A stretch of DNA of 64,000 bases from Candidatus Fermentibacterota bacterium (GTDB lineage Bacteria; JAFGKV01). A program made the position numbers and the translations under genes. Shown one piece after another: positions 3,961 to 31,487 of the stretch. Position 1 is the stretch's first letter; every line of letters starts with the position of its first letter. The notes below the pieces were generated by a model, which was not told the DNA's origin, did not search any database, and was given only the letters and a program-made list of their open reading frames with translations. The stretch is taken from the NCBI GenBank assembly GCA_016928395.1, contig JAFGKV010000147.1:82977-146976 (forward strand). Reading direction: 5' to 3'.

Positions 3961-5154
3961 TCATTCCATCATTCCATCATTTCTTCCCTCCAGGAAGGCG
4001 CACAGCTCTGTCGTTGCTTCGACGAAGCGGGGCCAGGAGTAGCGCTGCTCAACCAGGCTACGGCCATTGGAGCCAAGACGGGCGGCGAGGTCGGCATCAC
4101 CGAGGACTCGCAGGATGCCCGATGCGAGTGCCGTGGGCTCCGCAGGCACGAGTACCGCGGTATCGGAGCTCAGGACCTGGGTGTGGGTGGCCAGATCCGT
4201 GGCAACGATGGGCTTTCCTGACTGGAGATAGGAGTAGATCTTCAAGGGCGTGTTCTGCCCAACCAGCCGCGGCGACACCAACACCGATGCCAACTCCATG
4301 AATGCAGGCATCTCGTCGGGCGGGCGCTGGCCGGTCAAACGCACATGGTCGCCCAATCTCATCCGCTCTGCCCTGGAGTGAAATTCCGCGACCTGACCCG
4401 GCTCTCCGCCGACCAGCACGAACATGGCTCGCGGGTGGCGGGCGAGCACCTGCGGAACAGCCTCCATAAGGAGATCCAGCCCCTGGTTCACCTCGAACGT
4501 GCCGGTATACAGGACGACGTCTCTTCCCTTCACGCCCAGGCTTGTCCTGAGGACGCGGGCACTGGTCACGACGTCAGGGCCGGGTGGCTCGCACACTGGT
4601 GGGTTCTCGATCAGAAAGACCCGCTTCTCTGGGTCGATCTTACGGACTACCCGTTCCAGCCAAGGACACACCACGATCACCGCCGCACTGTGTCGCACGA
4701 TCCAGGCCTCCGTTCGTCGGGCCAGGGTCACCAGCGACCGGGGCTTGGTGAACCGGTAGTTTTCCAGCTGCTGCGGCAGGCTCGAGTGCATATCATAGAT
4801 ATGCGGAACCCCGAGCAGCATGGCGACGACGACCCCGATGATGCCGCCTTCTTCGTGAGAATCCACCACATCTACCCTTCCCACCTGGGGAAGCGCAGCC
4901 ACGACGCGGAGGGCAAGGAGGAAGTCCAGGGGAAACTTGATCCACGATGGGCCGATGGGCACGCTTCGTATCGGCGGCAGGGGAGGGCTTCGGAAGACTC
5001 TCACCCCCGGTAGTTCCACCCGCTGGCCGATGGCATAGGTGATCAGGTCCACCGTGTGTCCGAGATGGGTGAGTGCCCGCAATCGTTCCCGGATACTGAA
5101 CGGGGTGCCGCGAAACTGGAAATAGGGCTGGGGCGCGATCATGAGTATGCGCAC
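3961..5154 (-). CDS. Glycosyltransferase family 4 (GT1 group 1)
   Basis: MRILMIAPQPYFQFRGTPFSIRERLRALTHLGHTVDL...; C-terminal GT4 donor-binding region (FEVNQGLDLLMEA...LVSPRLVGQNTPLKIYSYLQSGKPIVATD). Confidence 0.85.
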   Translation of the reverse strand: MRILMIAPQPYFQFRGTPFSIRERLRALTHLGHTVDLITYAIGQRVELPGVRVFRSPPLPPIRSVPIGPSWIKFPLDFLLALRVVAALPQVGRVDVVDSHEEGGIIGVVVAMLLGVPHIYDMHSSLPQQLENYRFTKPRSLVTLARRTEAWIVRHSAAVIVVCPWLERVVRKIDPEKRVFLIENPPVCEPPGPDVVTSARVLRTSLGVKGRDVVLYTGTFEVNQGLDLLMEAVPQVLARHPRAMFVLVGGEPGQVAEFHSRAERMRLGDHVRLTGQRPPDEMPAFMELASVLVSPRLVGQNTPLKIYSYLQSGKPIVATDLATHTQVLSSDTAVLVPAEPTALASGILRVLGDADLAARLGSNGRSLVEQRYSWPRFVEATTELCAFLEGRNDGMME

Positions 5155-5190: not shown

Positions 5191-6291
5191 CTACTCCAGC
5201 TCAGCCTTGAACCTTCTCAGGATCTCGAGGGCCTCGGATCCCGGCACATTGTCCATGACGCCGAACGCGCCATCCATCTTGCCCTTCATGATTCCCCGGG
5301 CCGTCATGAGCCGCACGGGGTTGTAGTAGGGGCTTTGGGGCGACAGATCCGAGAAGTCGGCCTTGGTCTCGCCGACGTACTTCGTCTCCAGGGAAGGATC
5401 CCGGAAGGCCTCCACGAGTATTCGCTGCATGACCATGGCCAGCTCTGCCCTCGGTAGCGTCTCGTCGGGAATGAATGAGCCATCCGGCGCCACATCAAGG
5501 ATTCCGCAGGAGAGCACCTTCTCGGCGAACCCGCGGGCCCACGATCCCACCAGATCGGGAGGCGTTGCCACATCCGACATGCGATGGCGGTAGATGCGGT
5601 CTAGCGGAAGAAGCTCCACCAGCACGCCGGAGAGCTCGGCCTTGGTGATCGCCGGGGATACCGCGACTTTACGCATGACCTCTGACTGGCCGGCGGTGGC
5701 CCTGCGAATCTCCTGAAGGCGTTCCCACGCTTCGGAGGCCTTGAGGAACTTGGGATCGATCTCCAGGGCCTTGGCATAGCTGGCTTCGGCGGCATCGGTC
5801 AGGTTCTGCTTCTCCTGCACGGCTGCCTTGTAGAACCACGCAAACTTGTACGCCTCGGGCTGGGGTTTGCCGTCTCTGCTTGTGGTGTCCAGAGCCTTGT
5901 CGAACTGCTTCACGGCATCATCGAGCTTGCCCTGGGCCGCCTTCACTCTGCCCAAGCCGACCCTGGCCATGGCGTAGCGGCCGTCCTGGTCGAGTGACTC
6001 GTCCATTTCCTTCTCGGCCTTCTCCAACTCGCCACGCTCAAGATGCACCAGGCCCAGGCCTTCGTGGGCAGGCGCGTAGGGCCGCTTGGCGGTCTTGGCC
6101 AGATCCCGCGAGCGGACAAACATGTCCCCCGCAAGGTCCGGCTTGCCGGTGTTCAGGTAGTCCATACCCTGGCGGTACGCGCCCTCGGGCGTATCCAAGA
6201 CACTCACCGGTTTGAGCTGCTTGCCGCCGCCGCAGGCGACGAGCAGCGACGCTGCCAAGAGCATCACGACATACACGGGTCTCATTCGCAC
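5191..6291 (-). CDS. TPR-repeat lipoprotein with two C-terminal SLH (S-layer homology) domains
   Basis: Lipobox LLVAC|GGG. TPR-like repeats (AYRQGMDYLNTGKPDLA..., AYKFAWFYKAAVQE...). Two SLH-like modules (MSDVATPPDLVGSWARGFAEKVLSCGILDVAPDGSFIPDETLPRAELAMVM and FSDLSPQSPYYNPVRLMTARGIMKGKMDGAFGVMDNV). Confidence 0.75.
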   Translation of the reverse strand: MRMRPVYVVMLLAASLLVACGGGKQLKPVSVLDTPEGAYRQGMDYLNTGKPDLAGDMFVRSRDLAKTAKRPYAPAHEGLGLVHLERGELEKAEKEMDESLDQDGRYAMARVGLGRVKAAQGKLDDAVKQFDKALDTTSRDGKPQPEAYKFAWFYKAAVQEKQNLTDAAEASYAKALEIDPKFLKASEAWERLQEIRRATAGQSEVMRKVAVSPAITKAELSGVLVELLPLDRIYRHRMSDVATPPDLVGSWARGFAEKVLSCGILDVAPDGSFIPDETLPRAELAMVMQRILVEAFRDPSLETKYVGETKADFSDLSPQSPYYNPVRLMTARGIMKGKMDGAFGVMDNVPGSEALEILRRFKAELE

Positions 6292-6296
6292 CTCCT

Positions 6297-7427
6297 CTAT
6301 CGCCTCTCGGCTGCGACGACGATCTTCCTGTCATCCATGGTCGTCAGCCGGAACTCGGAATGCCGATCGATCCCAGTTGCCAGATACACGAGCTTCTCGG
6401 GGTAGTGGAGCGTAACAGTGCCTCCCCCATTCTTAAACACGCCGGGTTCCACGCCTTCCACCCACCGCTGCTTCTCCACCAGGTTCACCAGCTTGCGGAA
6501 CGATGCCATGTCGGGCAGGTCGGCCGCTTCGACGGTCACGGTCTGCATCTTCTGAACCAGGTACTCGGAGTTCATCCACGCCATGACTTTGGCCACCATC
6601 TGAGGGGCAGCCCTGATGAGGGCCTTTTCGCTGGCATCAATGGGGTCTTGACCGAAGTCTTTGACGCGCTGGAGCTGTTCCTGGCCGATGATGCGGCCGG
6701 TTTCCACTTCGACCATGCGGCAGGTAACCCTGGCATGGGCCGACGGCAATGAGATGTCAGACGCATACTCTGTCGTGTTCTCGTGAACCGTGGTGCGGGA
6801 CGTGCCTTTGATGACCAGATTCGACAGGAAGCGCAAGCCGATCACCTGGGCTTCTTCCACGTCACCCTTGATGCGGGACAGCTCCGAGTCACGGCGTCTC
6901 AGCTCAGTGATCTGTTCGCGATCCCGCACGTCGTAGCCGGCATTCACCAGCGCCTCGACTACTTCGCTTTCCACCAGTGGGTCGGGCACCGTCTCGCCGG
7001 CCATATCCTCGTCGATCTGGACGACCACGGTCATGTTGGCGGTCAGATTGCTCTTGATCCCCGTCTCCAGGGAGGCCTTGTCCACTGTTGCCGAGATCTT
7101 GACCTTGTAAAGCCCTGCGGCTGCGTCGGGACCCTCCTCGAGGATCTTGTAGGCGGTGATCAGACCGGAGGATGTATTGCGCACCGTGGCTGCCAGGAGC
7201 AACTCGTTCTGCACCAAAGTTTCGGCATCCACCAGAACGCCGACTGCCTGCTCCAGGGCACGGACCCTGGCATCGATGATAGCCTCGTCCCGCGCCTGGG
7301 CGATGTCGCCCGAGAGGATGGTGCCAACTCCCTCGGCCTCGACGATCTCCGCTCGAGAGATAGAGGCCGTCGTGAGCACCAGCAGCGCCAGAACGGAACG
7401 CGAAGCCCTATCCCACCACGAAGACAA
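6297..7427 (-). CDS. Secreted FlgT-like protein: LPP20/FlgT_N-type N-domain plus TolB-N/CsgG-like middle domain
   Basis: Signal peptide. N-domain AEGVGTILSGDIAQARDEAIIDARVRALEQAVGVLVDAETLVQNELLLAATVRNTSSGLITAYKIL...GLYKVKISATV fits the LPP20/FlgT_N pattern. Middle region VVVQIDEDMAG...VTCRMVEVETGRIIGQ is TolB-N-like. Confidence 0.65.
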   Translation of the reverse strand: MSSWWDRASRSVLALLVLTTASISRAEIVEAEGVGTILSGDIAQARDEAIIDARVRALEQAVGVLVDAETLVQNELLLAATVRNTSSGLITAYKILEEGPDAAAGLYKVKISATVDKASLETGIKSNLTANMTVVVQIDEDMAGETVPDPLVESEVVEALVNAGYDVRDREQITELRRRDSELSRIKGDVEEAQVIGLRFLSNLVIKGTSRTTVHENTTEYASDISLPSAHARVTCRMVEVETGRIIGQEQLQRVKDFGQDPIDASEKALIRAAPQMVAKVMAWMNSEYLVQKMQTVTVEAADLPDMASFRKLVNLVEKQRWVEGVEPGVFKNGGGTVTLHYPEKLVYLATGIDRHSEFRLTTMDDRKIVVAAERR

Positions 7428-8310
7428 CTCGGCACTCCTTGAGGAAGTCGCTCTTCATGTTGGCAGCCACCACGCGTGCGGCATCATCCGTGGAGAGCAG
7501 CACATCGGCGGAATAGGCGCCACCGGTGGCAACGGCCCGAACCACAAGCGGGCTCTCGCCCACGCGCTCTTTGAGCGCCGTCGCCTTGGCGACGGTGTCG
7601 GTGTAGCCTACAACGCCGAAGCGAACGGCTGCGGCCCGGTCCATGTTGACGCGGCCATACAACTCTTCGTCACGGCCTTGCACCAGCACGCGCGGCGCCA
7701 TCGTCGGCTTCACGCCCAAACCTGAGGCGTCTACAATGAGGCCGGAAGCGGGTGGAACGTCGGAGGGTGCAGAGTCGCCCACGGTGAATAGCTTTGGCGC
7801 CGCCGCCTGAGTTCGTCGCTGCAGCCAGGGCACCACCGCCGATGAGAGGCCCTTTTCACCCGTGAGTACGATACCGACGGTCATCTCAACCCACACGGAT
7901 CCATCCTCGAACTCGGTTCGCTCCATGGCGACTTCCCGGGCGCCTTTGATGAGGCCCTCGGTGGAAGATTTCAACTGCACGTCCTGGTGAACCTCATTGG
8001 CGAACAGATTGTCGGCGTCGATGCGCACACCGTAGATGATCTCTGCCAGTTTCTCAAAGGCCAGATGCCGGGCGGTCTTCAGGGCCATGGCATAGCATTG
8101 TGCCTTAGACTTTGCCCTCTCGACATTGCAGGTGCCACCGGCGGTGACTTCAAGGTACCCGTTCTCCCAGTTGACGCGGCTCTTGTAGTCTTCGGCGATG
8201 GTCCGCTCCTCCAACGCGGCCTTGGCACTCTGCTCGTCTTCCCACCAACGGGTCTGGGCAGAGACCACAGCAGCACTCGCCAACATGAGCGCGATGATCG
8301 ATTTCACCAT
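7408..8310 (-). CDS. LPP20/FlgP-like periplasmic protein with uncharacterised C-terminal domain (paralog of the 8412-10982 C-terminus)
   Basis: Start at MVKSIIALMLASAAVVSAQ with RBS AAGGAAGG; the ORF track extends it to 8382. NWENGYLEVTAGGTCNVERAKSKAQCYAMALKTARHLAFEKLAEIIYGVRIDADNLFANE...DGSVWVEMTV fits LPP20. C-terminal GLIVDASGLGVKP...PLVVRAV...FLKECRVVFVV is shared with the next gene. Confidence 0.65.
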   Translation of the reverse strand: MVKSIIALMLASAAVVSAQTRWWEDEQSAKAALEERTIAEDYKSRVNWENGYLEVTAGGTCNVERAKSKAQCYAMALKTARHLAFEKLAEIIYGVRIDADNLFANEVHQDVQLKSSTEGLIKGAREVAMERTEFEDGSVWVEMTVGIVLTGEKGLSSAVVPWLQRRTQAAAPKLFTVGDSAPSDVPPASGLIVDASGLGVKPTMAPRVLVQGRDEELYGRVNMDRAAAVRFGVVGYTDTVAKATALKERVGESPLVVRAVATGGAYSADVLLSTDDAARVVAANMKSDFLKECRVVFVVG

Positions 8311-8411
8311 ACCACCTTCCTTTCGATAGGGCGATCCAGACACAGCGCCAGAACCCTGGCACTCGCCGGGCTCGCATACCATTCGATTCCCACGGCGACG
8401 CGCCTATGGAT

Positions 8412-10982
8412 TCATGCCGTGGGTTCCACCGTGATGGCAACCCTGCAGTTCTTGAGAAATCCTCCCGCCCTATCGGCACGGTCAATGAGCAGTGCGTCCT
8501 CCCGGGAGACTACCACATCGGATCTGTTCTTACCCGTTGCCTCGATAGCCTTGACCACCAGAGGATTCGAACCGATGACACTCACGTGTTTTGTTCGGGC
8601 GGCCTCGGGAGTGGCAGCAAACCGGGTCAGCCCGCCCAGATTCAACTGCACGCTCCGAGAGGCCTTGGAATCGCCGTAGACCTCTTCGCCATCAGTCGAG
8701 AAAACCCGGGACTTAGTGGCCGGCCGAACGCCAAGGTACGCAGCATCCACGATGAGGCCGGTATAGGGTTCCTTACCCAGTTCGACGACCCGCGTCACAC
8801 TGGCTGCCGGCACCGGCATCGCCGAGCCGGGAGCGGACCTCAGCGAGTCCCGGAGTGTCTGTACCGCGCGGGCGGCGGCGGCCGCCTGCTCCATGGCTCG
8901 GGCCACATCGTCGCGGGATGCCCCATCGGTCCTGACGAGCTTTCGCATGGCCGCGGCTTCGGTCTCCGCAGTCGCGGCTCGTCCCTCCAGGGCAGCCACA
9001 GCAGCCTGGAGTGTCTGGGTCTGCGCCAGGCTCCTTTTCAAATCCGCGACCAAGGCGGTCACTTCCGGGGAGGGGGCACGGCTTCCCGTCTCCACGGCCT
9101 TTGTGGCCAGGGACATGGCGGCCATGGTCTCCCGCTCCAGCTCGGTCTGCCGGGCCCTGCTGGAAGCCAACTCCTCGGCCAACCGCTGGGTCTGGGCAGC
9201 CAAGGCCTGAATCTGGGCATCGCGCTGGGCTGCCGATGTCGTGGCGGCACTCTCGGTTGCCAATCGCGCCTGGGAGAGCTGCCGTTCCAACGCCACGGCC
9301 TTTTCCCGCGCAGCCTTGGCCTCGTGCGACGCCTGGCGGGCTTCGGCTACGGCCTGGGCTAGCGCCGCATTGTCTTCCTCTTTCAGACGGGACATGGCCG
9401 ACGTCGTCTGCGCTTCGAAGGCGCTCTGCTTCTGCCGGGCCGACGCCAACTCATCAGCGAGCCGCTTCGTCTCAGCCGATAGACGGGCCATCTCAATTTC
9501 TCGTTCTTGAGCAGGTTTCGAGGAGAGCGTGTCCACGGCGTTTCGGGTGTCCTGCAGTTGTCGTTCTAGCCCATCGGCCCGTTCCCTGGCCCGAAGCGCA
9601 TCATCCGCGGCCTGGCGGGCTTCCGCCAGGGCCTCGGCTGCTTTGTCTCCGGAGCCCGCCGCGGCCATGGCGGTCGTGGTACCCTTTTCGAATTGGGTCT
9701 CCAATTGTACCTGCCTCTGGCGCGTGGCTCCCAATTCCTGGGCAAGGCGCTGGGTTTCCGCGGCCAGCCTCACCATCTCAACGTCTCTCCCGGCGGCTGA
9801 TCGGGCCGTCAGGCTGTCGATAGCCAAGCGTGCCTCGCGAAGCTGCCGTTCCAGGGCCACTGCCTGCTCCCTGGCGTGGCGCGCCTCCTGGGCGGCCTGA
9901 TGGGCTTCGGTGAGAGCTGCGGAGGCCGCCGAATTGTCTGTGGCCAGGGCCGACTGGGCCTGGGTCAAACGTGTGAGCGCCAGCTCATTGTCCCGCCGCA
10001 ATCGGTCCGCTTCAGACCGGGCTGCCTCCACCTGCAGCGCCGCATCCTGGGACTTCTGTAGCATGTCGGCTACCTGGCGAGCCTGTTCTGTGGCCGAGGC
10101 GCTGGCTGCGCGGGCCTCATCCGCCGCGGTCTGGGCTTCGGCTGCGGCGTTGGCCAAACGGCCGGCGATCTCCCGGGCCTCCTGGGCCGCAGCCTGGGCC
10201 TGGCGCGTCTCATCGGATGAGGCCGCCTGAACCTGGCGGGCCTGGGCCTCGGCCGCGGAGCGGGCTACCTCGTCCGCAGCCTTGCGGGCCTCTTCGGCGA
10301 TGCGAAGGGCCGCGGCGGCTTGCTCCAGTGCCCGCGTGGCGGTCTCTCCGTCGCGCGAAGCGGTGATGGCGGCACGGGAGTCCTGGGCGGCCTGGGTTGC
10401 CTGTTGCACCAACGTTTCCAAGCGTTCGGCGCGCTGTGTGGTCTGCGCCAGCTCCGCCTGGGCACGCTCAAAGTCGGCGCGAAGCTTGGCGATCTCCGGG
10501 GCCACGGACGGCGCGGACGCGTGCTGCACCGCGGCGGCGCCGAGGCCCCGGGGACCAAAGATCATGACACCCAACTTCACCCTGACCAGCGGCGACCCGT
10601 CGGGCATGGTGACAGTGTCCTCGCTGATGATCCGGGCGTTCTTGATGAGGCCGTTCACCGCGGTGCGCAGTGTCGTGTTGGCGATTACCTCATCCTGGAA
10701 GGTATTCGAGGAACTCACATGAAGGCCGTGCACCGTCTCCGCCAGCTTCTCATAGGCTAAGGCGCGGGCGGCCTTGATCGCCATGGTGTAGCAGTGGCCC
10801 TGGTTCACGGCGAGGGTGGGATCGCAGGTCGCTTCTCCGACGACCTCCACATACCCGTTCTCCCAGTCTACCGTGGCGGTGTAGTCGGCACCCTGGTCTA
10901 TGTGCCTCAGGGCCGAAGCCTCCTGCGACGAGGCCGCAGTCGCAAGAAGGAGGATCAGACCGCTTACGATTTCATGCCGCAT
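8412..10982 (-). CDS. 856-aa LPP20-like protein with ~500-aa Ala/Gln/Arg-rich coiled-coil repeat region and conserved C-terminal domain
   Basis: Signal peptide; N-domain VDWENGYVEVVGEATCDPTLAVNQGHCYTMAIKAARALAYEKLAETVHGLHVSSSNTFQDE...DGSPLVRVKL (LPP20). Long heptad-like low-complexity segment with three ~90-aa repeats. C-terminus GLIVDAAYLGVRPATKSRVF...PLVVKAIEATG...FLKNCRVAITV. Confidence 0.7.
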   Translation of the reverse strand: MRHEIVSGLILLLATAASSQEASALRHIDQGADYTATVDWENGYVEVVGEATCDPTLAVNQGHCYTMAIKAARALAYEKLAETVHGLHVSSSNTFQDEVIANTTLRTAVNGLIKNARIISEDTVTMPDGSPLVRVKLGVMIFGPRGLGAAAVQHASAPSVAPEIAKLRADFERAQAELAQTTQRAERLETLVQQATQAAQDSRAAITASRDGETATRALEQAAAALRIAEEARKAADEVARSAAEAQARQVQAASSDETRQAQAAAQEAREIAGRLANAAAEAQTAADEARAASASATEQARQVADMLQKSQDAALQVEAARSEADRLRRDNELALTRLTQAQSALATDNSAASAALTEAHQAAQEARHAREQAVALERQLREARLAIDSLTARSAAGRDVEMVRLAAETQRLAQELGATRQRQVQLETQFEKGTTTAMAAAGSGDKAAEALAEARQAADDALRARERADGLERQLQDTRNAVDTLSSKPAQEREIEMARLSAETKRLADELASARQKQSAFEAQTTSAMSRLKEEDNAALAQAVAEARQASHEAKAAREKAVALERQLSQARLATESAATTSAAQRDAQIQALAAQTQRLAEELASSRARQTELERETMAAMSLATKAVETGSRAPSPEVTALVADLKRSLAQTQTLQAAVAALEGRAATAETEAAAMRKLVRTDGASRDDVARAMEQAAAAARAVQTLRDSLRSAPGSAMPVPAASVTRVVELGKEPYTGLIVDAAYLGVRPATKSRVFSTDGEEVYGDSKASRSVQLNLGGLTRFAATPEAARTKHVSVIGSNPLVVKAIEATGKNRSDVVVSREDALLIDRADRAGGFLKNCRVAITVEPTA
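9100..9960 (-). repeat. In-frame tandem protein repeats (~270 bp x3) inside the coiled-coil gene
   Basis: Three ~90-aa units (A(E/Q)AR(H/Q)A.EQAVALERQL(R/S)(E/Q)ARLA...ET(Q/K)RLA(Q/D)ELA..RQ.Q.E.Q). Coordinates approximate. The repeats generate many spurious plus-strand ORFs. Confidence 0.55.
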
Positions 10983-10992
10983 GGTGCGCTCC

Positions 10993-11829
10993 TCACGTGC
11001 AGTGGTTCTTGACGTAGTGGGTGGCTGCCTTGTTTGACGGGTCGATGGCGAGAATCCGTTTCCATAGAGCGCAGGCTTCCTTCAGGTCGCCGCGCTTCTG
11101 AGCTTCCAATGCCAGATCGCCATACACCTTCGCCAGGTTGAACTTGGCATCCTGACTGTTCGGGTTCACCTGGAGAACCCTCCGCCACTGATCGATGGCC
11201 GCCTGGGATTCACCCTTGGCGTAGAGTACCCAGCCCAGGCTGTTGCGGGCCTCCTGATGGCGCGAGTCAAGCTCGATGGCCCGGCGGAACGACAGCTCGG
11301 CATTGGCCTGCATGCCCAGCCGGAAGAACACCGCGCCCAGCTTCAGGTGGGTCTCTGGCTCCATGGCGTCGGCGTCTCGGGAGCGTCGCAGATGGTCCAT
11401 CGCATCCTCGACGCGACCGCGAAGCAGATAGAGAGCCCCCAGGAAGTAGTGTGCGGTGGCATTGCCGGGATCTGCGCCAAGCATGGCCTGGAATTGACCC
11501 CTGGCCTGTTCGATCCGCTCGGCGTGGAGATCAATCACGCCCTGCCACATGCACGCGGTCTCATTGCCCGGATCCAAGGCCTGGACGTAGGCGAACTGAG
11601 CCGAAGCTCCTTTCGTATCGCCGAGCTTGAGGAGAACAAGCCCCAGCAGGTTTCTGGCATAGACGTTTCGTGGGTCCATTGTCACTGCCTGGTTCAGCTT
11701 GTCTCGGGCAGCAGGGAGCCGGCCCGCCACATGATCGAGGTCGGCATCCAGCGCCAGGCGCAGAGACTCTTCAGCCGGGCCTGCCGTGCAGACACCCACG
11801 ATAATCGCGAGTAACGCCGCCACTCTCAT
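10993..11829 (-). CDS. TPR-repeat secreted protein
   Basis: Signal peptide MRVAALLAIIVGVCTAGPA followed by about 6 TPR-like repeats (ARNLLGLVLLKLGDTKGA, AHYFLGALYLLRGRVEDA, and others). Confidence 0.7.
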   Translation of the reverse strand: MRVAALLAIIVGVCTAGPAEESLRLALDADLDHVAGRLPAARDKLNQAVTMDPRNVYARNLLGLVLLKLGDTKGASAQFAYVQALDPGNETACMWQGVIDLHAERIEQARGQFQAMLGADPGNATAHYFLGALYLLRGRVEDAMDHLRRSRDADAMEPETHLKLGAVFFRLGMQANAELSFRRAIELDSRHQEARNSLGWVLYAKGESQAAIDQWRRVLQVNPNSQDAKFNLAKVYGDLALEAQKRGDLKEACALWKRILAIDPSNKAATHYVKNHCT

Positions 11830-13004
11830 GACGCGTAGGCCGCCAGCTTCGCCGCCAGGGTCTCGACCAGCCTCTCCTGAGCCTGTTCGCGGGCCAAGAG
11901 AAGCTCCTCGTCAGGATTGCTGATGAAGGCAGTTTCGACGAGCACCGAGGGCATCCGTGCCTTCTTGAGTACGAAGAAACCCGCGCTACTAATGCCGCGG
12001 CTTCGCACCGGAAACCCGGTCTTGAGGGCCTCCTGCACGTCGGCCGCGATGCGGCCGGAATCTTTCCACAGGAGCTTGCGCTGCAGCCGGAACAAGACCC
12101 ACTCGATATCGACGAGACTCTCCTGTCTGGCCAGTTCCTCGGGCTCGGCGAAGCTGTTCTCGAAGGTGGCGACTCGGGCCGCCTCCGCGCTGGAGGCCTG
12201 CTCGGAGCAGAAGAAGGTCTCGGAGCCGACGGCCTTGCGGTTCTCATTGGCGTTGCAGTGAATGGACACGAAGAGATCGGCGCCATACTGGTTGGCCACG
12301 GCGGTGCGGTCGCTTAGGTTCAGGTAGTAGTCATCGGTGCGTGTCAGGGCAATCCTGCCGAAGCCCGCCCGATCGAGGCGCGCGGCCAGGAGCCGGCTTA
12401 GTGCGAGAGTGATATCCTTCTCCTTGGTTCCCTTGAGACCTACGGCGCCGGGATCATGGCCGCCGTGGCCCGGATCGATGACGATGTTGCGGATACGCAA
12501 CCCAAGCCTGCCATCGGAGCTTCTTTGTCTGAGGCGTTCCGCTTCCTCGCGCGCTTCGGCCTCCAGCCGGGCCATCTCGGGCGAGGTGGCCGCGATTCTT
12601 GGGGCCAAGGCGGGGCCAAGAACATCCACGATGACCCGGGGGGGATCACCCACCATCCGGGCCGTGACATGGGATCCGGTGGATGCATCAAACTCCAGGA
12701 TGGTTTTGTAGCCTTCGTCAGACGGCGTGAAGATCCGATAGCTCCGCACAGGTCCGGAGGAGAGCTGGCGGCTGTCCTCCACTGGCAGATACAGCGCATT
12801 CTTCAGAACCACTTGGGGGGGAGGCCCGGGGCGGACATCCAGAGGGCAGGCTCCATCTAACTCAAGGACGACCCGCGTCTGGTCTTCCAGTACGAAGGCG
12901 TCCACCCTGCCAATGAGGGGAAGAAGATCGTCGTCCGCAAAGGCTGTCCGGGAGAGCAGGATAGCAGACGCCGGAAGGGTTTTCAGGAAGATGCGCCGCC
13001 GCAT
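11826..13004 (-). CDS. N-acetylmuramoyl-L-alanine amidase (AmiC-like: AMIN domain + Amidase_3)
   Basis: IDPGHGGHDPGAVGLKGTKEKDITLALSRLLAARL and ADLFVSIHCNA zinc-ligand motifs. N-terminal AMIN-like beta domain. 4-nt overlap with the upstream gene. Confidence 0.85.
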   Translation of the reverse strand: MRRRIFLKTLPASAILLSRTAFADDDLLPLIGRVDAFVLEDQTRVVLELDGACPLDVRPGPPPQVVLKNALYLPVEDSRQLSSGPVRSYRIFTPSDEGYKTILEFDASTGSHVTARMVGDPPRVIVDVLGPALAPRIAATSPEMARLEAEAREEAERLRQRSSDGRLGLRIRNIVIDPGHGGHDPGAVGLKGTKEKDITLALSRLLAARLDRAGFGRIALTRTDDYYLNLSDRTAVANQYGADLFVSIHCNANENRKAVGSETFFCSEQASSAEAARVATFENSFAEPEELARQESLVDIEWVLFRLQRKLLWKDSGRIAADVQEALKTGFPVRSRGISSAGFFVLKKARMPSVLVETAFISNPDEELLLAREQAQERLVETLAAKLAAYAS

Positions 13005-13007
13005 GGA

Positions 13008-14450
13008 CTACTTCGTGACTACCAGATCATTCACCGTGACCGCCCCGCCCGTGCCCTCAACGGGCTGGGCCACCGCCATCATCTCCATCACTTCGGTCAG
13101 GACGACTTCAGACTTGCTCTTGCGGGTTCTTCCAAGGGTCTTCCCGGTCGCAGGATGGGTGATCGGTTCGCCCTCGGTGAAGACGTGGAGCTTCATGCCT
13201 TTGCGCATGCCTTGGCGGGAACCCAACCCGACGTAGACTGATCCGTCAGGGTCGACCTTGACCACGGAGCCCTCCACGAGGGGGAGGACATTGGCGAAGT
13301 AGGCGGCGATATCCGCCACGGAGCGACGTAGCTGCGCAGGATCGGATTCCGGGGCTTGGGCCGATCGGGCGGCCAGCACTTCTCCCGTTTCCGTGTCAAC
13401 CAGCCGCAGATCCATCTCCACTGTTGGACCCGAACGGTTCACGCTTCCCATCACCAGGCAGTCAACCCCCGCCTGCTTGCCAAGTCTTGCCGCGGTTGAT
13501 TGATCGACGAGGTCGGTCAGCCCGAACTTGAGTTCCTTCAGCACCTTGTCCATCTGGATGCGTTCATTGACTTGAAACCGCTGATACTCCACCAACGATG
13601 TCACCATGCGCTCCGCAATGAGCCCGCCCAAGTCTTCCGTGCCCTTTGGGGCCGACATGGGGATGACTCCGACCGAGAGATAGGGAACAACGCGCTGCAC
13701 CTTGCCGGATGGGTGCGCGGTCGCCGGCGCGGGCGGACGAGTCTGGGCCGGCGGCGTGACCTGCTGAAGTGGAGGAGTTGCAGCCGGCTCAGGGATGACG
13801 CCGAAATCCTTGGGCACTTTCACCTTCCTGATGGCGCCGAGGGTCTTCTTGTCCAGCGTTCCCGTAGCGGAGAGCCGGTTGTCCTGTTGGAAACTCTGTA
13901 GCGCCGCCTGGCTGCCTTTGCCGAAGATTCCGTCTACTGTGCCGGAGTAGTAGCCTTTGTACGACAAGACCCTTTGTACTTCCCGAAGCTCATCCTGCGA
14001 CAGAGTGAGGGCGGGGGTTGCCTGTGGTTTCTCTGGTGTTGCAGGCGGGGTGGGTGTGACGCGGGCAGGAGGAGCAACTCCATTAGAAACCTTGGAAAGG
14101 AACTCGAGCGTCCGCGCATCGTTGGGAGTGTAGGCTGCTGCGAGATCGAGTTCTTCCCGTGCCCGGGTCAGGTCGCCAAGATGATAGGCGGCGATCCCGA
14201 TCTCCCGGTGGGGATGGTAGTCGACGAAATGCATGCCGTAGGTCTGAACCTTTTTCGACTGGTCTTGAAAGAGACCCTCCAACGCTTGTTCGAAGGCCAC
14301 GATGGCCTGCGCGTACTTCGCCTCTTTCGTGAGACGGAGACCCTGGGCGTAGTAGTTGTACCATCGGTCGGCGGAATCGACGAGGCCCGGCCCTGCCGAA
14401 AGAAACCCCACCACGAGGAGAATCACAGTCCGTCTCATCTCTTCCCTCAT
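13008..14450 (-). CDS. Periplasmic protein: TPR region + peptidoglycan-binding (PG_binding_1) domain + CsgG/FlgO(TolB-N)-like domain
   Basis: LREVQRVLSYKGYYSGTVDGIFGKGSQAALQSFQQDNRLSATGTLDKKTL is PG_binding_1. LSVGVIPMSAPKGTEDLGGLIAERMVTSLVEYQRFQVNERIQMDKVLKELKF...LGKQAGVDCLVMGSVNRSGPTVEMDLRLVDTETGEVL fits the CsgG/FlgO/LpoB family. Pro-rich linkers. Start uncertain (14450, 14438 or 14519). Confidence 0.65.
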   Translation of the reverse strand: MREEMRRTVILLVVGFLSAGPGLVDSADRWYNYYAQGLRLTKEAKYAQAIVAFEQALEGLFQDQSKKVQTYGMHFVDYHPHREIGIAAYHLGDLTRAREELDLAAAYTPNDARTLEFLSKVSNGVAPPARVTPTPPATPEKPQATPALTLSQDELREVQRVLSYKGYYSGTVDGIFGKGSQAALQSFQQDNRLSATGTLDKKTLGAIRKVKVPKDFGVIPEPAATPPLQQVTPPAQTRPPAPATAHPSGKVQRVVPYLSVGVIPMSAPKGTEDLGGLIAERMVTSLVEYQRFQVNERIQMDKVLKELKFGLTDLVDQSTAARLGKQAGVDCLVMGSVNRSGPTVEMDLRLVDTETGEVLAARSAQAPESDPAQLRRSVADIAAYFANVLPLVEGSVVKVDPDGSVYVGLGSRQGMRKGMKLHVFTEGEPITHPATGKTLGRTRKSKSEVVLTEVMEMMAVAQPVEGTGGAVTVNDLVVTK

Positions 14451-14792
14451 CGTGAAAACGGCCAGAGTGTCAGATGTACGAAAGCAAGATAGCCAGGCCC
14501 CGAGGAGGCGGCAAGACACGGATTAGGTGCCGGGGTAGGGACAGGCTATCCTCCGCAGACGAAGGGAGTCCTCAAACCCTTCGTGGCTGGAGGTGCGGCA
14601 GAGCACACCGGCTGGTGTGTGGGCTCGCGCGGGAGCAAGCAGGTGTGCAGGAGGGCACGGTGTCATACCCCTTCAGGCCCTGAAGCCATCCTTCATGCCA
14701 GCGTTGCTCTCTTCTGTCGCCGAGCCACACTCGGACCTGCCGCCTTGACAGCGTCACCGGCATTCTTGACCAGCGGGGTGGTCTCTGCGGAT

Positions 14793-15442: not shown

Positions 15443-17284
15443 CTACTTCAAAGGCGCAGAGAATGTCTCCTCAATCAGATGCAGCACATTCTGAGGAAGC
15501 TCACAGGCAAGAAACTCCTTCACATCACGAGCTGACTTTTCCGACTTCTGCGCCCGATTGAGCGAGGCCCGGCTTATCCGGAATCGACAGGCGTGGTCAA
15601 CAGCGATGATTTCCGCGAATTCGGCGGCCTGCCGGAGGCGCTGCAGCGATATCGTCAGCGGAAGGAAGAACTCACCGTTGGCGGCGACGCGCAACGGCAG
15701 CGAGGTCTCAACCGGTGGTGCCTCGAGAGGGGGCTGAAGCGCACGGATGTAGAGCACGTTGGCTTGATCCCGGGCCATGTCGGCCCGTTGACTCCACCAG
15801 ATCGTGGTGGCAAGGCCGGCAAGGAGAGGAGAGGCTGAGTGCTCCGGGGAATCGAGTATCTCCGAAATGGGCGCCAGATCCGGTGCGGTGGCAAGGAGGC
15901 GACGAAAACCCGCAATCCCTATGAGATAGCCCGAAAGACTGGCCACGGGAACCCAGGCCTTCATGGTGGATGTCAGCTCAATAAGATAGCTGCGCAGCCT
16001 GCCGACCAAATGAGTCATCGGTCCCGGCGAAGCGAGGCGACAGGGGCACGATCTGCTTTCGTCCCATGAGAGCAAGGTAGGGAGTTGCGCCACCGCGATC
16101 TGAAACAGCGCACGGGGACCCCGGGCCATGAGATCCTCGGCCTCCGCCGACGGCACAATGACCGGAGATCCGCGTTCCATTGTGACCTGGAGCCAGCCGC
16201 AATCCCAGGACACCGCCAGCAGGAAGCGCTGGTATGGCTGCTGAAGAGCCAACAGTCTGGAAAGCCTATCGACATGGATCATGCTGGGGGTGCTGTCCTT
16301 GGTGGACGGGGGAGGCATCAGGGAGGTCGCGACAAGCAGGCGCAACAGGTCGAGAGCGAAGTCTCCAGGCGGAGTTACCCTGACCAAGGATGTGTCGCGT
16401 GCCGCACGGGAGGGTCGGCTGAATCGCTTAAACAGGCGGGGGATCGCACGGGCTACGGGCTTGTCTGCCTCAAGGGAGATCGAAATCTCCCTCAAGGCAG
16501 AACTTGGATCCAGATCCTTCGGGCGGGCAAGTCCGAGAAGCAAGATCTCCTGAAGCGGGTTGTGACTCCCCGTTCCATGGTAGCGCATATACCGTGGCCA
16601 CGAGAACACCTCCGGCGAGCCTGTTCCTAGCAGGATCGCCAGCCGGGCGGCAGGCTGAGGCGAGGGCGACGACTGCAGTGTTTCCATGGCGAGCAACTGG
16701 CGCAAGGAAAGTGCGGGGATCTGCGAAGCCCACGATCGCCTGACCTGATAGTAGGTGCCGGCCAGGGCATGCAATGCGCGCAGGTACGAGGCTGACTCAC
16801 GGACAGTCTGCCGTGGAATGACCCCCTGTGCCATGTAGGCGACCATGGCCTGCGCCAGGCTCCCTTGCAGAGTCCACGCAGCATCGGAGAGGAAGGCATA
16901 CTCCAGTGGCATCAGAGGCTTGTCGTGTGTATCGATACGAAACGCAAGCCCCAGCTCCACAAGGCGTTGACCGAAGCTCTCACCCAGCGACGGGGGCGAG
17001 AGTTCGAGAAGGAGCTTCTGGAGCGCAAGGCGGTATTGGTTGCGTTCTGATTCGGTGAGCTGCCGAACCTGAAGGAGAATCCACTCCCTACGCCCAAGAA
17101 AGCGACACAGCTTGTCCTGAAGCATGAGCCCCCGAAAGTGATCGCCCCTGGTAAGGCCGATCCCCAGATACTGCGCCATATGCTCCACGAGGGCAGGGCT
17201 GGATGAGAGTATCTGTGCCATCAGTATGGGAGGGCGCAGTCGGCGGGCATTCGTGGCGGTTTTCGGATCAGTTCGCGCGCTCAA
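15443..17284 (-). CDS. Hypothetical 613-aa Leu/Arg-rich protein, 4-nt overlap with (downstream of) cphA
   Basis: Long ORF with codon usage matching neighbours and translational coupling to cphA (ATGA overlap). No recognisable motif. Confidence 0.6.
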   Translation of the reverse strand: MSARTDPKTATNARRLRPPILMAQILSSSPALVEHMAQYLGIGLTRGDHFRGLMLQDKLCRFLGRREWILLQVRQLTESERNQYRLALQKLLLELSPPSLGESFGQRLVELGLAFRIDTHDKPLMPLEYAFLSDAAWTLQGSLAQAMVAYMAQGVIPRQTVRESASYLRALHALAGTYYQVRRSWASQIPALSLRQLLAMETLQSSPSPQPAARLAILLGTGSPEVFSWPRYMRYHGTGSHNPLQEILLLGLARPKDLDPSSALREISISLEADKPVARAIPRLFKRFSRPSRAARDTSLVRVTPPGDFALDLLRLLVATSLMPPPSTKDSTPSMIHVDRLSRLLALQQPYQRFLLAVSWDCGWLQVTMERGSPVIVPSAEAEDLMARGPRALFQIAVAQLPTLLSWDESRSCPCRLASPGPMTHLVGRLRSYLIELTSTMKAWVPVASLSGYLIGIAGFRRLLATAPDLAPISEILDSPEHSASPLLAGLATTIWWSQRADMARDQANVLYIRALQPPLEAPPVETSLPLRVAANGEFFLPLTISLQRLRQAAEFAEIIAVDHACRFRISRASLNRAQKSEKSARDVKEFLACELPQNVLHLIEETFSAPLK

Positions 17285-23119: not shown

Positions 23120-23437
23120 GGATCCTGCCTTGTGCCGTGGGTGAGCGATGGAGCGTTGCCAAACACATAAGGGTATACTGACTCGGTGCCCGATGCAACC
23201 ATTGCTTTCCCACGAGCAACCGCTCAGGCTGTTTGGGGTTTTGGATCGAGTGATGTTCGATCCAACGTGACGGACCGATGAACGAGAGGAGTCCCCGGTT
23301 CGTCTTTCGTGACTCCGTGTACGCCGGGCGCATTGAGGCTATGAGTCGTGACTAGTATGGGTAGCTTGAGGAGGACATGTGACGCAGTGTCGTGCACCAG
23401 GAGCATCCGGGGAGATTCCGTGGTAAGACGAACCCTC

Positions 23438-29584: not shown

Positions 29585-29745
29585 CTCGAGGTGAGCACTC
29601 AAAGCGGTGGCCAGGCACAGGATACGTATCGTTCCATCTCCTGCGGCATGTGTAGCGGTGAAGAAACCGTGGCGCGACGAGGTAGAAGGGGATAGACCCG
29701 ATCAGCACCACAAGGATGATGAAGGGAAGACGTGGAGGATCGTTC

Positions 29746-31137: not shown

Positions 31138-31487
31138 GGGGGCGTTCCATGAGCCGGGTTCGGGGTTCAGGGGCGGAATGATGGGGATGGATGGAAGAAT
31201 GGAAGAATGGAAGAATGGAGCGGGGGGTGTCCTTTCCTGCAATCCCTGGATGCCCTTCATGCCGCAGGCCCTGAGCCGAGTCGAGGGGGTGAGTTTCTCC
31301 GCTCTGTGGCATCTGTGCCCTCCGTGGTGAACTCTCCTTAACGAGCGTTGCGGCTTTGTCGTTGACCCTGAGAGTAGTCGAGGGGCGTCAGATCTCTGTT
31401 TTGGATTTCGAGCTTGGCCTCGCACCCGCGGATGCGGGGTTTTGTGCCTCCCGCGAAGCGGGCGGACTGCTGAGAATGGAGAGGGCA

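What the first reader, a model, noticed from the sequence alone, without database searches (positions are those of the whole stretch)
8412..10982. 856-aa LPP20-domain protein carrying a ~500-residue tandemly repeated coiled coil: a candidate periplasmic spacer
The protein combines a signal peptide and N-terminal LPP20-like domain with a very long Ala/Gln/Arg/Glu-rich heptad-like segment. That segment contains three clear ~90-aa tandem repeats (…EARQA..A..ARE.AVALERQL..ARLA…ETQRLAEELA..R.RQ…). It ends in a ~115-aa globular domain. Architecturally this resembles OM-PG tethers such as SLH-coiled-coil-barrel proteins (SlpA/OmpM type), but with different terminal domains. Unit copy number may vary between strains. 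A 500-aa coiled coil (tens of nm) exceeds normal periplasmic width, implying tilted, ring-like or bundled packing.
Basis: seen in the sequence. Interest (0 to 1): 0.65.

Follow-up and report, generated by a model that had tools for sequence, protein, structure and literature searches.

The report
Periplasmic two-domain protein split by coiled coil
This is a real, conserved exported protein of an uncultured, apparently flagellum-less bacterium, in which a two-domain module known from a syphilis-spirochete protein is split by a ~555-residue hinged coiled coil; it probably acts as a long strut in a cell-envelope complex, which is a new variant of a known family rather than a new kind of system.

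Summary
ORF 8412-10982(-) encodes an 856-aa exported protein with a globular N-domain, a ~555-aa helical middle and a globular C-domain.

- **Repeats.** Three 93-96-aa units lie at aa 348-442, 443-535 and 536-631. They are old copies (42-51% aa, 52-56% DNA identity). An independent assembly has the same three units, each under purifying selection, so they are not an assembly artefact.
- **Copy number.** Seven shorter orthologues have exactly one unit. Number differs between lineages (1 or 3), not by recent slippage.
- **Domains.** Pfam finds nothing. Profile searches match the N-domain to flagellar FlgP (LPP20-type fold) and the C-domain to domain D2 of Treponema pallidum Tp0624. The protein is a Tp0624-type D1-D2 module whose 20-residue linker is replaced by the helical region.
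- **Coiled coil.** Twelve ~40-49-aa heptad segments are separated by hinges. Core composition and 16:0 attractive g-e' charge pairs point to a parallel, in-register, probably two-stranded coil.
- **Context.** The gene sits in a conserved eight-gene envelope operon with a coil-less paralogue.
- **Function.** Unknown. My best guess is a hinged periplasmic strut. It is not itself an OmpM/Lpp-type tether.

Moderate interest; a new variant of a known kind.

The parts
8412..10982 (-). Whole gene: 856-aa exported D1-coiled coil-D2 protein
   Evidence: ORF with RBS. Eight homologues at 39-71% identity.
10923..10982 (-). Signal peptide, aa 1-~20 (MRHEIVSGLILLLATAASSQ); SPase-I type with no lipobox Cys
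   Evidence: Read from the sequence. N-termini of the orthologues align. No predictor was run.
10542..10910 (-). D1, aa ~25-147: FlgP/LPP20-type SHS2-like domain with a conserved Cys53/Cys64 pair and a ~30-aa insert (aa 86-115) after the helix
   Evidence: Family profiles hit C. jejuni FlgP 9hmf_C at E 1e-8 and 4e-11, ungapped over the helix plus insert. Pfam LPP20 gives no hit. The insert has pLDDT <50 but is the most conserved stretch.
8835..10499 (-). Helical region, aa 162-716: ~12 heptad segments of 27-49 aa with hinges; Ala-rich a/d core
   Evidence: AF2 helices. Heptad statistics. a/d and g-e' analysis. Conserved Pro/Gly hinge columns.
9657..9941 (-). Repeat unit U1, aa 348-442
9378..9656 (-). 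Repeat unit U2, aa 443-535
9090..9377 (-). Repeat unit U3, aa 536-631
8415..8771 (-). D2, aa ~738-856: homologue of Tp0624 domain D2
   Evidence: Profile hits to 5jir_B at E 3e-10 (A2) and 8e-4 (A1). Foldseek top hit is 5jir. pLDDT 86-95.
7408..8310 (-). Downstream paralogue, 300 aa: D1-D2 without the coil. The 324-aa ORF to 8382 probably starts at Met25.
   Evidence: BLASTP to the 856-aa protein: D1 36% (E 4e-30), D2 37% (E 1e-15). The 300-aa form is the NCBI-annotated product P0009. Foldseek aligns it to 5jir over 281-302 columns.
6297..7427 (-). 376-aa exported protein with a FlgT_N/LipL46-like N-domain
   Evidence: NCBIfam LipL46 E 6e-8 and Pfam FlgT_N E 0.06. Counterparts in distant loci hit FlgT_N at the tool's unmarked level, E<=1e-5.
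5191..6291 (-). TPR + SLH lipoprotein (lipobox LLVAC)
   Evidence: Pfam TPR families and SLH at 31.8 bits against a 20.8-bit cutoff. Conserved next to D1-D2 genes in distant lineages.
3961..5154 (-). GT4 glycosyltransferase, last gene of the conserved cluster
   Evidence: Pfam. Synteny. Terminator-like hairpin at 3679-3660(-).
10993..11829 (-). 278-aa TPR protein directly upstream; start and stop overlap the amidase gene
   Evidence: Pfam. Synteny.
11826..13004 (-). N-acetylmuramoyl-L-alanine amidase (Amidase_3) with an N-terminal MRRRIFLK twin-arginine-like motif
   Evidence: Pfam E 1e-49. Motif read from the sequence.
13008..14519 (-). First gene of the cluster: PG_binding_1 + CsgG/LpoB/FlgO-like + weak FlgT_C-like protein
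   Evidence: Pfam. Synteny. The divergently transcribed PTS_EIIA gene upstream marks the operon boundary.

Best explanation
The gene encodes a Sec-exported, soluble periplasmic structural protein. It comes from a diderm MAG labelled Candidatus Fermentibacteria.

It is a Tp0624-type D1-D2 module. D1 is a FlgP/LPP20-like SHS2 domain that keeps the FlgP-type insert. D2 is the fold first seen in Tp0624. The short D1-D2 linker has been replaced by ~555 residues of Ala-rich coiled coil.

The coil is built of ~12 heptad segments of ~40-49 residues joined by hinges. Its sequence signatures indicate a parallel, in-register, probably two-stranded homo-oligomer. The D1 domains would then sit at one end and the D2 domains at the other.

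A lineage-specific triplication of one 93-96-aa two-segment unit lengthened the rod by about 28 nm. That takes it from ~55 to ~82 nm if fully extended.

Together with its coil-less paralogue and the other operon products, I infer that it forms a peptidoglycan/outer-membrane-associated scaffold. In that scaffold the coiled coil would be a long, hinged strut or ruler lying obliquely or parallel to the wall. The other operon products are a CsgG/FlgO-like PG-binding protein, an amidase, two TPR proteins (one an SLH lipoprotein), a FlgT_N-like protein and a GT4 transferase.

Shown: the architecture, the homologies, the repeats and their copy numbers, the heptad and charge signatures, the purifying selection and the operon conservation. 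Inferred: periplasmic location, oligomeric state, D1 oligomerisation through the insert, and the strut function.
For: **Architecture and homology.** A2 and A1 family profiles hit FlgP chains (9hmf_C at E 4e-11 and 1e-8; also 9yfg, 9yec, 9yds, 8z5n). They also hit Tp0624 D2 (5jir_B at E 3e-10 and 8e-4). Foldseek puts 5jir first for both AF2 models. Parker et al. 2016 (PMC5104382) define D1, the 20-aa linker L1 and D2.

**Helix.** AF2 predicts helix for aa 162-716.

**Coiled coil.** All 12 segments have significant heptad periodicity, with period 3.43-3.54 in 11 of 12. Position a is 38% Ala and 41% LIVMF; position d is 48% Ala and 36% LIVMF.

**Parallel orientation.** Beta-branched residues number 21 at a against 4 at d, and Leu 13 against 21; all nine orthologues show the same bias. 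Charge pairs g to e'(i+5) are 16 attractive and 0 repulsive. Controls are b-g 5:4 and e-c 5:6, and the permutation p is 5e-5.

**Repeats.** Three units in the window protein and in P0001/L004, one unit in seven other orthologues. dN/dS is 0.11-0.14 per unit.

**Context.** The eight-gene operon is conserved down to 41% identity. A core of D1-D2, TPR-SLH, FlgT_N-like and CsgG-like genes recurs in distant lineages.

**Envelope.** A TolC-type efflux operon lies in the window. Fermentibacteria are reported as diderm and without flagellar genes (PMC5030696; PMC5763382).
Against: - No experiment exists on any D1-D2 protein's function. Tp0624's role is itself only proposed.
- Oligomeric state and orientation rest on sequence statistics from my own scripts. 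No established predictor or multimer model could be run.
- In Tp0624, D1 and D2 pack as one integrated unit. That would favour a fold-back hairpin that keeps them together.
- Hinge positions are roughly symmetric about a Pro/Gly-rich site at aa 344-351. Only odd unit numbers (1 and 3) were seen. Both fit a hairpin.
- The AF2 monomer model has low pTM (0.34) and says nothing reliable about overall shape.
- The protein has no membrane anchor or recognised PG-binding domain, so any tethering must go through partners.
- The absence of flagella is documented for other Fermentibacteria genomes, not for this MAG.
Confidence: 0.5

Rival explanations
1. Fold-back stalk. D1 and D2 stay packed together as in Tp0624. 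The helical insert forms an intramolecular antiparallel hairpin projecting ~27 nm from that head. In the three-unit form the outer half becomes a four-helix bundle (aa 256-348, U1, U2, U3).
For: - Tp0624 D1-D2 is an integrated unit, and the insertion lies in the flexible C-terminal part of linker L1 (alignments).
- Conserved Pro/Gly columns at aa 344-351 could be a hairpin tip.
- Hinges lie about 50, 96, 138 and 186 residues before the tip and about 46, 91, 138 and 168 after it in one-unit proteins.
- The helix at aa 256-348 and the three units all have 89-94 residues.
- Only 1 or 3 units were found, never 2. Odd numbers keep the chain returning to the head.
- Foldseek matches of the helical part are to antiparallel helical proteins such as MRS2/CorA, syntaxin, VIPP1 and MukB, all weak.
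Against: - The 16:0 attractive g-e'(i+5) pairs and the beta-branched-at-a, Leu-at-d asymmetry are hallmarks of parallel in-register coils. An antiparallel hairpin does not predict them.
- Foldseek aligned only one end domain of the 856-aa model to 5jir, 144-148 columns.
- All segments are ~45 aa, so hinge symmetry could be coincidence.
- The sample of copy numbers is small, about ten loci.
Confidence: 0.25
2. Direct outer membrane-peptidoglycan tether or periplasmic width ruler of the OmpM/SlpA or Lpp kind. One end would be fixed in or on the outer membrane and the other on peptidoglycan, so that coil length sets the spacing.
For: - The domain-coiled coil-domain layout.
- Coil length changes in steps between lineages: 572, 681-688 and 856-860 aa.
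- Operon partners carry SLH and PG_binding_1 domains and an amidase.
Against: - The protein has no lipobox, beta-barrel, SLH, OmpA-like or PG_binding domain, and no C-terminal Lys.
- Even the one-unit form (~55 nm extended) is longer than a usual periplasm.
- Frequent hinges make it a poor rigid ruler.
Confidence: 0.12
3. Flagellar accessory protein: a component of a basal disk or H-ring like FlgP, FlgT and FlgO.
For: - D1 is homologous to FlgP, including the insert that builds FlgP rings.
- Neighbouring genes have FlgT_N-, FlgO/CsgG- and FlgT_C-like regions.
Against: - No flagellar gene is found among the ~35 ORFs scanned in the 64-kb window.
- The phylum is described as lacking flagellar genes and as non-motile.
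- The protein has no lipid anchor, unlike FlgP.
- The D1-D2 family is very large, 5568 clusters, and mostly non-flagellar in architecture.
Confidence: 0.03

Closest known systems
Treponema pallidum Tp0624 (PDB 5JIR), D1-D2 tandem unit (Parker et al. 2016, PMC5104382)
   Same: Same two domains in the same order. D2 is matched by sequence profile (E 3e-10 and 8e-4). Foldseek aligns D1 and D2 of the paralogue's model over 281-302 columns. Both proteins are exported. The paper notes that D1-D2-only proteins exist in other bacteria.
   Different: Tp0624 has a 20-residue linker, an integrated D1-D2 unit and a C-terminal OmpA-like D3. This protein has ~555 helical residues in place of the linker and no D3. 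Neither protein has a demonstrated function.
FlgP (LPP20 family, IPR024952), the flagellar basal-disk protein of Campylobacter and Vibrio (PDB 9HMF, 8Z5N, 9YDS)
   Same: D1 aligns without gaps to C. jejuni FlgP residues 79-146. That stretch covers the SHS2 helix and the following insert, which in FlgP is the ring-forming beta-hairpin.
   Different: This protein has no lipobox and no flagellar context. It has an extra D2 domain and a coiled coil. Pfam LPP20 does not reach it. Oligomerisation of D1 has not been tested.
Tropomyosin-type parallel two-stranded, Ala-rich, segmented coiled coils (comparison from general knowledge)
   Same: It shows heptads with Ala clusters in the core. Beta-branched residues sit at a and Leu at d. 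The g-e' charge pairs are attractive, and segment length is quasi-regular at ~40-49 residues.
   Different: There is no sequence homology. This protein is periplasmic and has globular domains at both ends. Binding along a polymer is pure conjecture.
OmpM/SlpA (SLH-coiled coil-beta-barrel) and Braun lipoprotein Lpp tethers
   Same: A coiled coil in the cell envelope with different functions at its two ends. An SLH lipoprotein is encoded in the same operon.
   Different: This protein has no SLH domain, barrel, lipid anchor or C-terminal Lys. Its coil is far longer and is hinged.

Membership tests
Tp0624-type D1-D2 family (no Pfam model) | D2 domain homologous to Tp0624 residues ~198-317 | tested here: met
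   5jir_B hit over chain positions 136-261: E 3e-10 with the paralogue family profile and 8e-4 with the coiled-coil family profile. 5jir is the Foldseek top hit.
Tp0624-type D1-D2 family (no Pfam model) | D1 (beta-sheet plus long helix) N-terminal to D2 in the same chain | tested here: met
   Foldseek aligns the 300-aa paralogue's model to 5jir_A/B over 281-302 columns at E 7e-9. The 856-aa protein's D1 is 36% identical to the paralogue's D1.
Tp0624-type D1-D2 family (no Pfam model) | Short linker with D1 and D2 packed as one unit | tested here: not met
   The linker is replaced by aa ~148-737, of which 162-716 is helical. Whether D1 and D2 still touch could not be tested.
LPP20/FlgP family (PF02169, IPR024952) | Match to the Pfam LPP20 model | tested here: not met
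   No hit at E<=10 for the isolated N-domain or the whole protein. Some distant D1-D2 relatives do hit PF02169: P0045, P0132 and P0185.
LPP20/FlgP family (PF02169, IPR024952) | Sequence homology to a bona fide member (FlgP) | tested here: met
   9hmf_C at E 1e-8 and 4e-11. Four further FlgP chains at E 1e-7 to 4e-3.
LPP20/FlgP family (PF02169, IPR024952) | Lipoprotein signal peptide (lipobox Cys) | tested here: not met
   No Cys before residue 53. The orthologues also lack one.
Flagellar basal-disk / H-ring components | Flagellar gene neighbourhood or a flagellated host | tested here: not met
   No flagellar families among the scanned ORFs of the window. The phylum is reported to lack flagellar genes. 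The whole genome of this MAG was not examined.
OmpM/SlpA-type OM-PG tether | N-terminal SLH domain and C-terminal beta-barrel | tested here: not met
   No SLH or porin family hit. The C-domain is the alpha/beta D2 fold.
Braun lipoprotein (Lpp)-type tether | Lipid anchor, short trimeric coil and C-terminal Lys linked to peptidoglycan | tested here: not met
   No lipobox. The C-terminus is ...TVEPTA. The coil is ~555 aa and has dimer-like a/d residues.
Parallel coiled coil | Heptad periodicity with a hydrophobic a/d seam | tested here: met
   12 of 12 segments have p<=0.03, and 11 of 12 have period 3.43-3.54. a/d positions are 79-84% Ala or hydrophobic.
Parallel coiled coil | In-register parallel chain orientation | tested here: inconclusive
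   g-e' pairs are 16:0 attractive (p 5e-5) and the a/d asymmetry fits a parallel coil. These are only sequence statistics; no multimer model or experiment was available.

The most novel reading that the evidence does not exclude
The operon builds a non-flagellar periplasmic ring, disk or lattice under the outer membrane of a flagellum-less phylum. It would be made of FlgP-like (D1-D2), FlgT-like and FlgO/CsgG-like proteins. The coiled-coil paralogue would act as a tropomyosin-like ruler or strut, lying along or bridging that polymer and the SLH/PG-bound wall. This would be a living example of the kind of envelope scaffold from which flagellar basal disks and H-rings were recruited.
Probability: 0.12. 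Interest if true: 0.75.

Novelty: new variant of a known kind. Interest (0 to 1): 0.4.

Why it matters
D1-D2 proteins form a very large family with no Pfam model and no known function. The search found 5568 clusters at 50% identity with E<=1e-3. The only solved member is the T. pallidum protein Tp0624.

This locus adds three things:
- A link between D1 and the ring-forming flagellar protein FlgP.
- A conserved set of partner genes (TPR-SLH lipoprotein, FlgT_N-like and CsgG/FlgO-like proteins, amidase). These point to a peptidoglycan-associated envelope complex in bacteria reported to lack flagella.
- A natural 'length series' of 572, ~683 and ~858 aa made by a coiled-coil insertion and unit triplication. 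It could be used to test whether coil length sets an envelope dimension.

If the complex proves to be a non-flagellar ring or lattice, it would bear on how flagellar periplasmic disks evolved.

Tried and rejected
- **Tandem Repeats Finder on the DNA** found only a 9-bp micro-repeat. The units are too diverged for it.
- **Self-BLASTP** gave only the identity diagonal, so I wrote a windowed dot plot.
- **Pfam and NCBIfam** gave no useful family for the protein. The only hits were a weak SMC coiled-coil match and UPF0425_C noise.
- **Global Fourier analysis** of the 550-aa region was not significant, because the heptad register shifts. Per-segment, family-averaged analysis was needed.
- **Unit HMM on the rest of the helix** found no cryptic older repeats above reversed-sequence controls.
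- **Third homologue search**, with a D1-only profile, hit the candidate cap and returned only ~300-aa paralogue-type proteins.
- **The genome-collection scan** found two loci, one cut at the contig end (L002).
- **The metagenome scan** added L010, which is cut inside the first unit, plus L012-L014.
- **The exact window protein** is not on record in the collection.
- **Accession searches** for GCA_900174595/FWPV01 in the literature found nothing relevant. I suspect that genome is 'Sabulitectum silens' but could not verify it.
- **Model coordinates** are not exposed, so D1-D2 contact and end-to-end distance in the AF2 model could not be measured.
- **Rfam** found no RNA in the window.
- **The promoter/terminator scan** was uninformative apart from a hairpin after the last operon gene.
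- **Assembly artefact** is rejected. The units are only 52-56% identical in DNA and are reproduced in an independent assembly.
- **Single-alpha-helix (SAH) domain** was considered, because i to i+3/i+4 salt bridges are abundant (34:11 and 37:8). I rejected it as the main reading because of the consistent a/d seam and the g-e' pairing.
Full report
**1. The observation**

ORF 8412-10982 on the minus strand encodes 856 aa. It has an ATG start and a GGAG 8-9 nt upstream.

- The N-terminus (MRHEIVSGLILLLATAASSQ...) reads as a Sec/SPase-I signal peptide without a lipobox Cys. This is read from the sequence; no predictor was run.
- The middle region is 28% Ala, 11% Arg, 10% Glu and 9% Gln.
- A windowed BLOSUM62 dot plot gives diagonals at offsets 95, 93 and 188. 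Their scores are 93-116, against 53.6 +/- 5.2 (maximum 72) for shuffles of the region.
- The three units are aa 348-442, 443-535 and 536-631. They share 42-51% protein and 52-56% codon-aligned DNA identity.
- Tandem Repeats Finder sees nothing at the DNA level.
- Long ORFs on the plus strand across this region (for example 8406-9362 and 9011-9823) are shadows of the GC- and Ala-codon-rich gene.

**2. Homologues and copy number**

A search of 5.8 billion proteins found eight relatives. P0001 has 860 aa and ~70% identity. P0002-P0008 have 681-688 aa and 39-64% identity.

- In the alignment, the shorter proteins lack ~175-190 residues exactly where two of the three units lie.
- An HMM built from the units finds exactly three copies (92-101 bits each) in the window protein and in P0001/L004. 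It finds exactly one copy (82-109 bits) in all seven shorter orthologues and their loci L001, L003/L011, L012 and L013/L014.
- The rest of the helical region does not score above reversed-sequence controls.
- No two-copy form was seen, but the sample is only about ten loci. L002 and L010 are cut by contig ends.
- Between the window gene and L004, each unit has 68-73% amino-acid identity and dN/dS of about 0.11-0.14. This is similar to the rest of the protein, although dS is saturated.

The triplication is therefore old, shared by two independently assembled genomes and selectively maintained. It is not an assembly artefact. With only 52-56% DNA identity between copies it will not vary by slippage between strains.

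**3. The end domains**

Pfam and NCBIfam give no family for this protein or for the gene downstream, even at E<=10 for the isolated domains.

The downstream ORF is a paralogue with the same two end domains and no long middle. It runs 7408-8382 and probably starts at Met25, giving 300 aa. D1 is 36% identical (E 4e-30) and D2 37% identical (E 1e-15).

A profile of 20 paralogue-type sequences (A2) searched against PDB sequences gave two sets of hits:
- The N-domain matched flagellar FlgP chains: 9hmf_C at E 4e-11, then 9yfg, 9yec, 9yds and 8z5n.
- The C-domain matched T. pallidum Tp0624 (5jir_B, chain positions 137-261) at E 3e-10.

The coiled-coil family's own profile (A1) gives the same two answers, FlgP at E 1e-8 and Tp0624 at E 8e-4.

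The AlphaFold2 model of the paralogue has pLDDT 64. Its top Foldseek hit is 5jir over 281-302 columns (E 7e-9), followed by the C. jejuni motor scaffold 9hmf_A. The 856-aa model also has 5jir as its top hit.

Parker et al. 2016 (PMC5104382) describe Tp0624 as D1 (sheet plus long helix), a 20-residue linker L1, D2 (a then-novel fold) and an OmpA-like D3. They report that D1 and D2 pack as one unit, and that about 50 D1-D2-only proteins occur in other bacteria. Function is unknown.

The window protein is therefore a D1-D2 protein whose linker has been replaced by about 590 residues. The conserved G-x-x-G-L motif that starts the linker is retained in both paralogues.

The 'LPP20-like' call is right in the sense of homology to FlgP. 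The FlgP alignment is ungapped over the SHS2 helix and the next ~35 residues (window aa 62-129 against FlgP 79-146). In FlgP that stretch is the beta-hairpin insert that builds the rings (PMC12222027). In this family it is the most conserved stretch, yet AF2 leaves it unstructured with pLDDT <50. This fits folding on oligomerisation, but that is an inference.

Cys53 and Cys64 are invariant in the coiled-coil family. This suggests a disulfide, as expected outside the cytoplasm.

**4. Size of the family**

An exhaustive HMMER search with the A2 profile against 1.84 billion representatives gave 5568 clusters at E<=1e-3 and 1094 at E<=1e-30.

- Most members are 280-350 aa long.
- Among the best 150, only P0002, P0007, P0008 and P0034 (572 aa) have the match split by a long insert.
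- P0034 carries a ~290-aa Ala/Glu/Arg-rich helical insert at the same place.
- P0024/P0025 have a separate ~60-aa heptad insert there.
- Other variants are D1-D2 fused to a caspase-like peptidase (P0050, P0059, P0061) and arrays of several LPP20-like domains (P0045, P0130, P0132). Some of these reach Pfam LPP20.

**5. The helical region**

AF2 (pLDDT 74, pTM 0.34) predicts helices at aa 162-208, 212-250, 256-348, 350-440, 445-487, 492-533, 538-631, 639-684 and 690-716. Pro/Gly-rich alignment columns mark conserved hinges near aa 162, 249, 294-298, 344-351, 395 and 639.

I divided the region into 12 segments of 27-49 residues and used hydrophobicity averaged over the nine orthologues.
- Every segment shows a significant a/d pattern (p 0.0005-0.03).
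- Eleven of the twelve have a best period of 3.43-3.54.
- The register is not continuous through the middle of any unit (p 0.19-0.61). Each unit is therefore two heptad segments.

Core and flanking positions have the following composition:

| Position | Composition |
|---|---|
| a | 38% Ala, 41% LIVMF |
| d | 48% Ala, 36% LIVMF |
| e | Arg-rich |
| g | Glu-rich |

Two features bear on chain orientation.
- Beta-branched residues are 21 at a against 4 at d, and Leu is 13 against 21. All nine orthologues show the same bias. By the established rules for coiled coils, this is typical of parallel two-stranded coils.
- Charged g to e'(i+5) pairs are 16 attractive and 0 repulsive. The controls at the same spacing are b-g 5:4 and e-c 5:6, and the permutation p is 5e-5. 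Orthologues give 7-15 attractive against 0-2 repulsive.

This is the pattern expected for a parallel, in-register homo-oligomer, not for an antiparallel hairpin. At ~0.148 nm per residue, 555 residues would span ~82 nm. The one-unit form would span ~55 nm.

**6. Genomic context**

P0009, the 300-aa product identical to the paralogue, is annotated by NCBI as a hypothetical protein of a 'Candidatus Fermentibacteria bacterium'.

The gene sits in a tightly packed minus-strand cluster:

| Coordinates | Product |
|---|---|
| 13008-14519 | PG_binding_1 + CsgG/LpoB/FlgO-like, with a weak FlgT_C match |
| 11826-13004 | Amidase_3 with an MRRRIFLK twin-arginine-like start |
| 10993-11829 | TPR protein |
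| 8412-10982 | This gene |
| 7408-8310 | Coil-less D1-D2 paralogue |
| 6297-7427 | FlgT_N/LipL46-like protein |
| 5191-6291 | TPR + SLH lipoprotein |
| 3961-5154 | GT4 glycosyltransferase |

- The same eight genes in the same order occur in L003, L004 and L013, the last at only 41% identity. L001 has the same order, but its contig ends inside the amidase gene, so the first gene is not covered.
- Distant lineages with a single D1-D2 gene keep a core of D1-D2, TPR-SLH, FlgT_N-like and CsgG-like genes (L005/L006 and L009).
- No flagellar family was found among about 35 ORFs scanned in the window. The window does hold a TolC/HlyD/AcrB efflux operon.
- Fermentibacteria genomes are reported to be diderm with LPS and to lack flagellar genes. 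'Sabulitectum silens' is described as non-motile (PMC5030696, PMC5763382).

**7. Interpretation**

What is shown: an exported D1-coiled coil-D2 protein; its homologies to FlgP and Tp0624; a lineage-specific, selected triplication; a segmented coil with parallel-type signatures; and a conserved peptidoglycan-related operon.

What I infer (confidence about 0.5): the protein is a hinged periplasmic strut. It would hold FlgP-like D1 assemblies, perhaps mixed with the paralogue's D1, at one end and D2 at the other. It would work within a wall/outer-membrane-associated complex built by the operon.

The main rival (0.25) is an intramolecular fold-back stalk that keeps D1 and D2 together as in Tp0624.
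- For it: roughly symmetric hinges about aa 344-351, the equal ~91-94-residue lengths of helix 256-348 and the three units, and the odd unit numbers.
- Against it: the g-e' and a/d statistics.

A flagellar role is very unlikely.

**8. Verdict**

It is a new architectural variant of a known but uncharacterised family, with no experimental handle on function. Interest is moderate (0.4).

The most novel reading still open is a non-flagellar FlgP/FlgT/FlgO-type periplasmic assembly with a tropomyosin-like ruler (probability about 0.12).

Noticed in passing
window 7408-8310 (-): A coil-less D1-D2 paralogue (300 aa) lies directly downstream of the coiled-coil gene. It is present wherever the coiled-coil gene occurs. 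Lineages without the coiled-coil gene have a single D1-D2 gene, so the coiled-coil gene probably arose by duplication followed by insertion.
   Followed up: yes
window 5191-6291 (-); also L005 10877-11995, L009 3839-5011, L013 8028-9125: A TPR lipoprotein with a C-terminal SLH domain is conserved next to D1-D2 genes. This is in bacteria labelled as members of the FCB group. An SLH-based wall anchor is better known from Terrabacteria-type diderms.
   Followed up: partly
L005/L006 10001-14863 and L009 2906-7278: Distant lineages carry a recurrent four-gene core: D1-D2, TPR-SLH, FlgT_N-like and CsgG-like, with a FecR/MtxA_N protein in L005/L006. This is a candidate uncharacterised envelope module.
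   Followed up: partly
window 11826-13004 (-): The Amidase_3 gene starts with MRRRIFLK. This resembles a twin-arginine export motif like those of E. coli AmiA/AmiC. An N-terminal beta-rich region precedes the catalytic domain and was not identified by Pfam.
   Followed up: no
proteins P0050, P0059, P0061: These are D1-D2 modules fused to a C-terminal caspase-like Peptidase_C14 domain. Other relatives are arrays of three or more LPP20-like domains (P0045, P0130, P0132).
   Followed up: partly
proteins P0024/P0025 (alignment A2 columns ~200-275) and P0034: These proteins carry other helical or heptad inserts at the same D1-D2 linker. The inserts are ~60 aa in sequences labelled Armatimonadetes and ~290 aa in P0034. 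The linker seems to be a hot spot for coiled-coil insertion.
   Followed up: partly
window 8406-9362 (+), 9011-9823 (+), 9529-9900 (+), 10282-10760 (+): Long antisense ORFs overlap the coiled-coil gene. They are Pro/Gly/Ser/Arg-rich shadows of the GC- and GCN-codon-rich sense strand, not genes.
   Followed up: partly
window 17281-19935 (-), 23348-25771 (+), 29716-35791 (+), 40628-43296 (-): Ordinary genes elsewhere in the window: cyanophycin synthetase, HypF, a TolC/HlyD/AcrB efflux operon and a TldD/PmbA pair. The efflux operon supports a diderm envelope.
   Followed up: no
L004 15583-17911: The closest three-unit relative has bacterial microcompartment shell genes (BMC, EutN_CcmL) and an aldehyde dehydrogenase a few kb from the operon. 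There is no counterpart next to the operon in the window.
   Followed up: no
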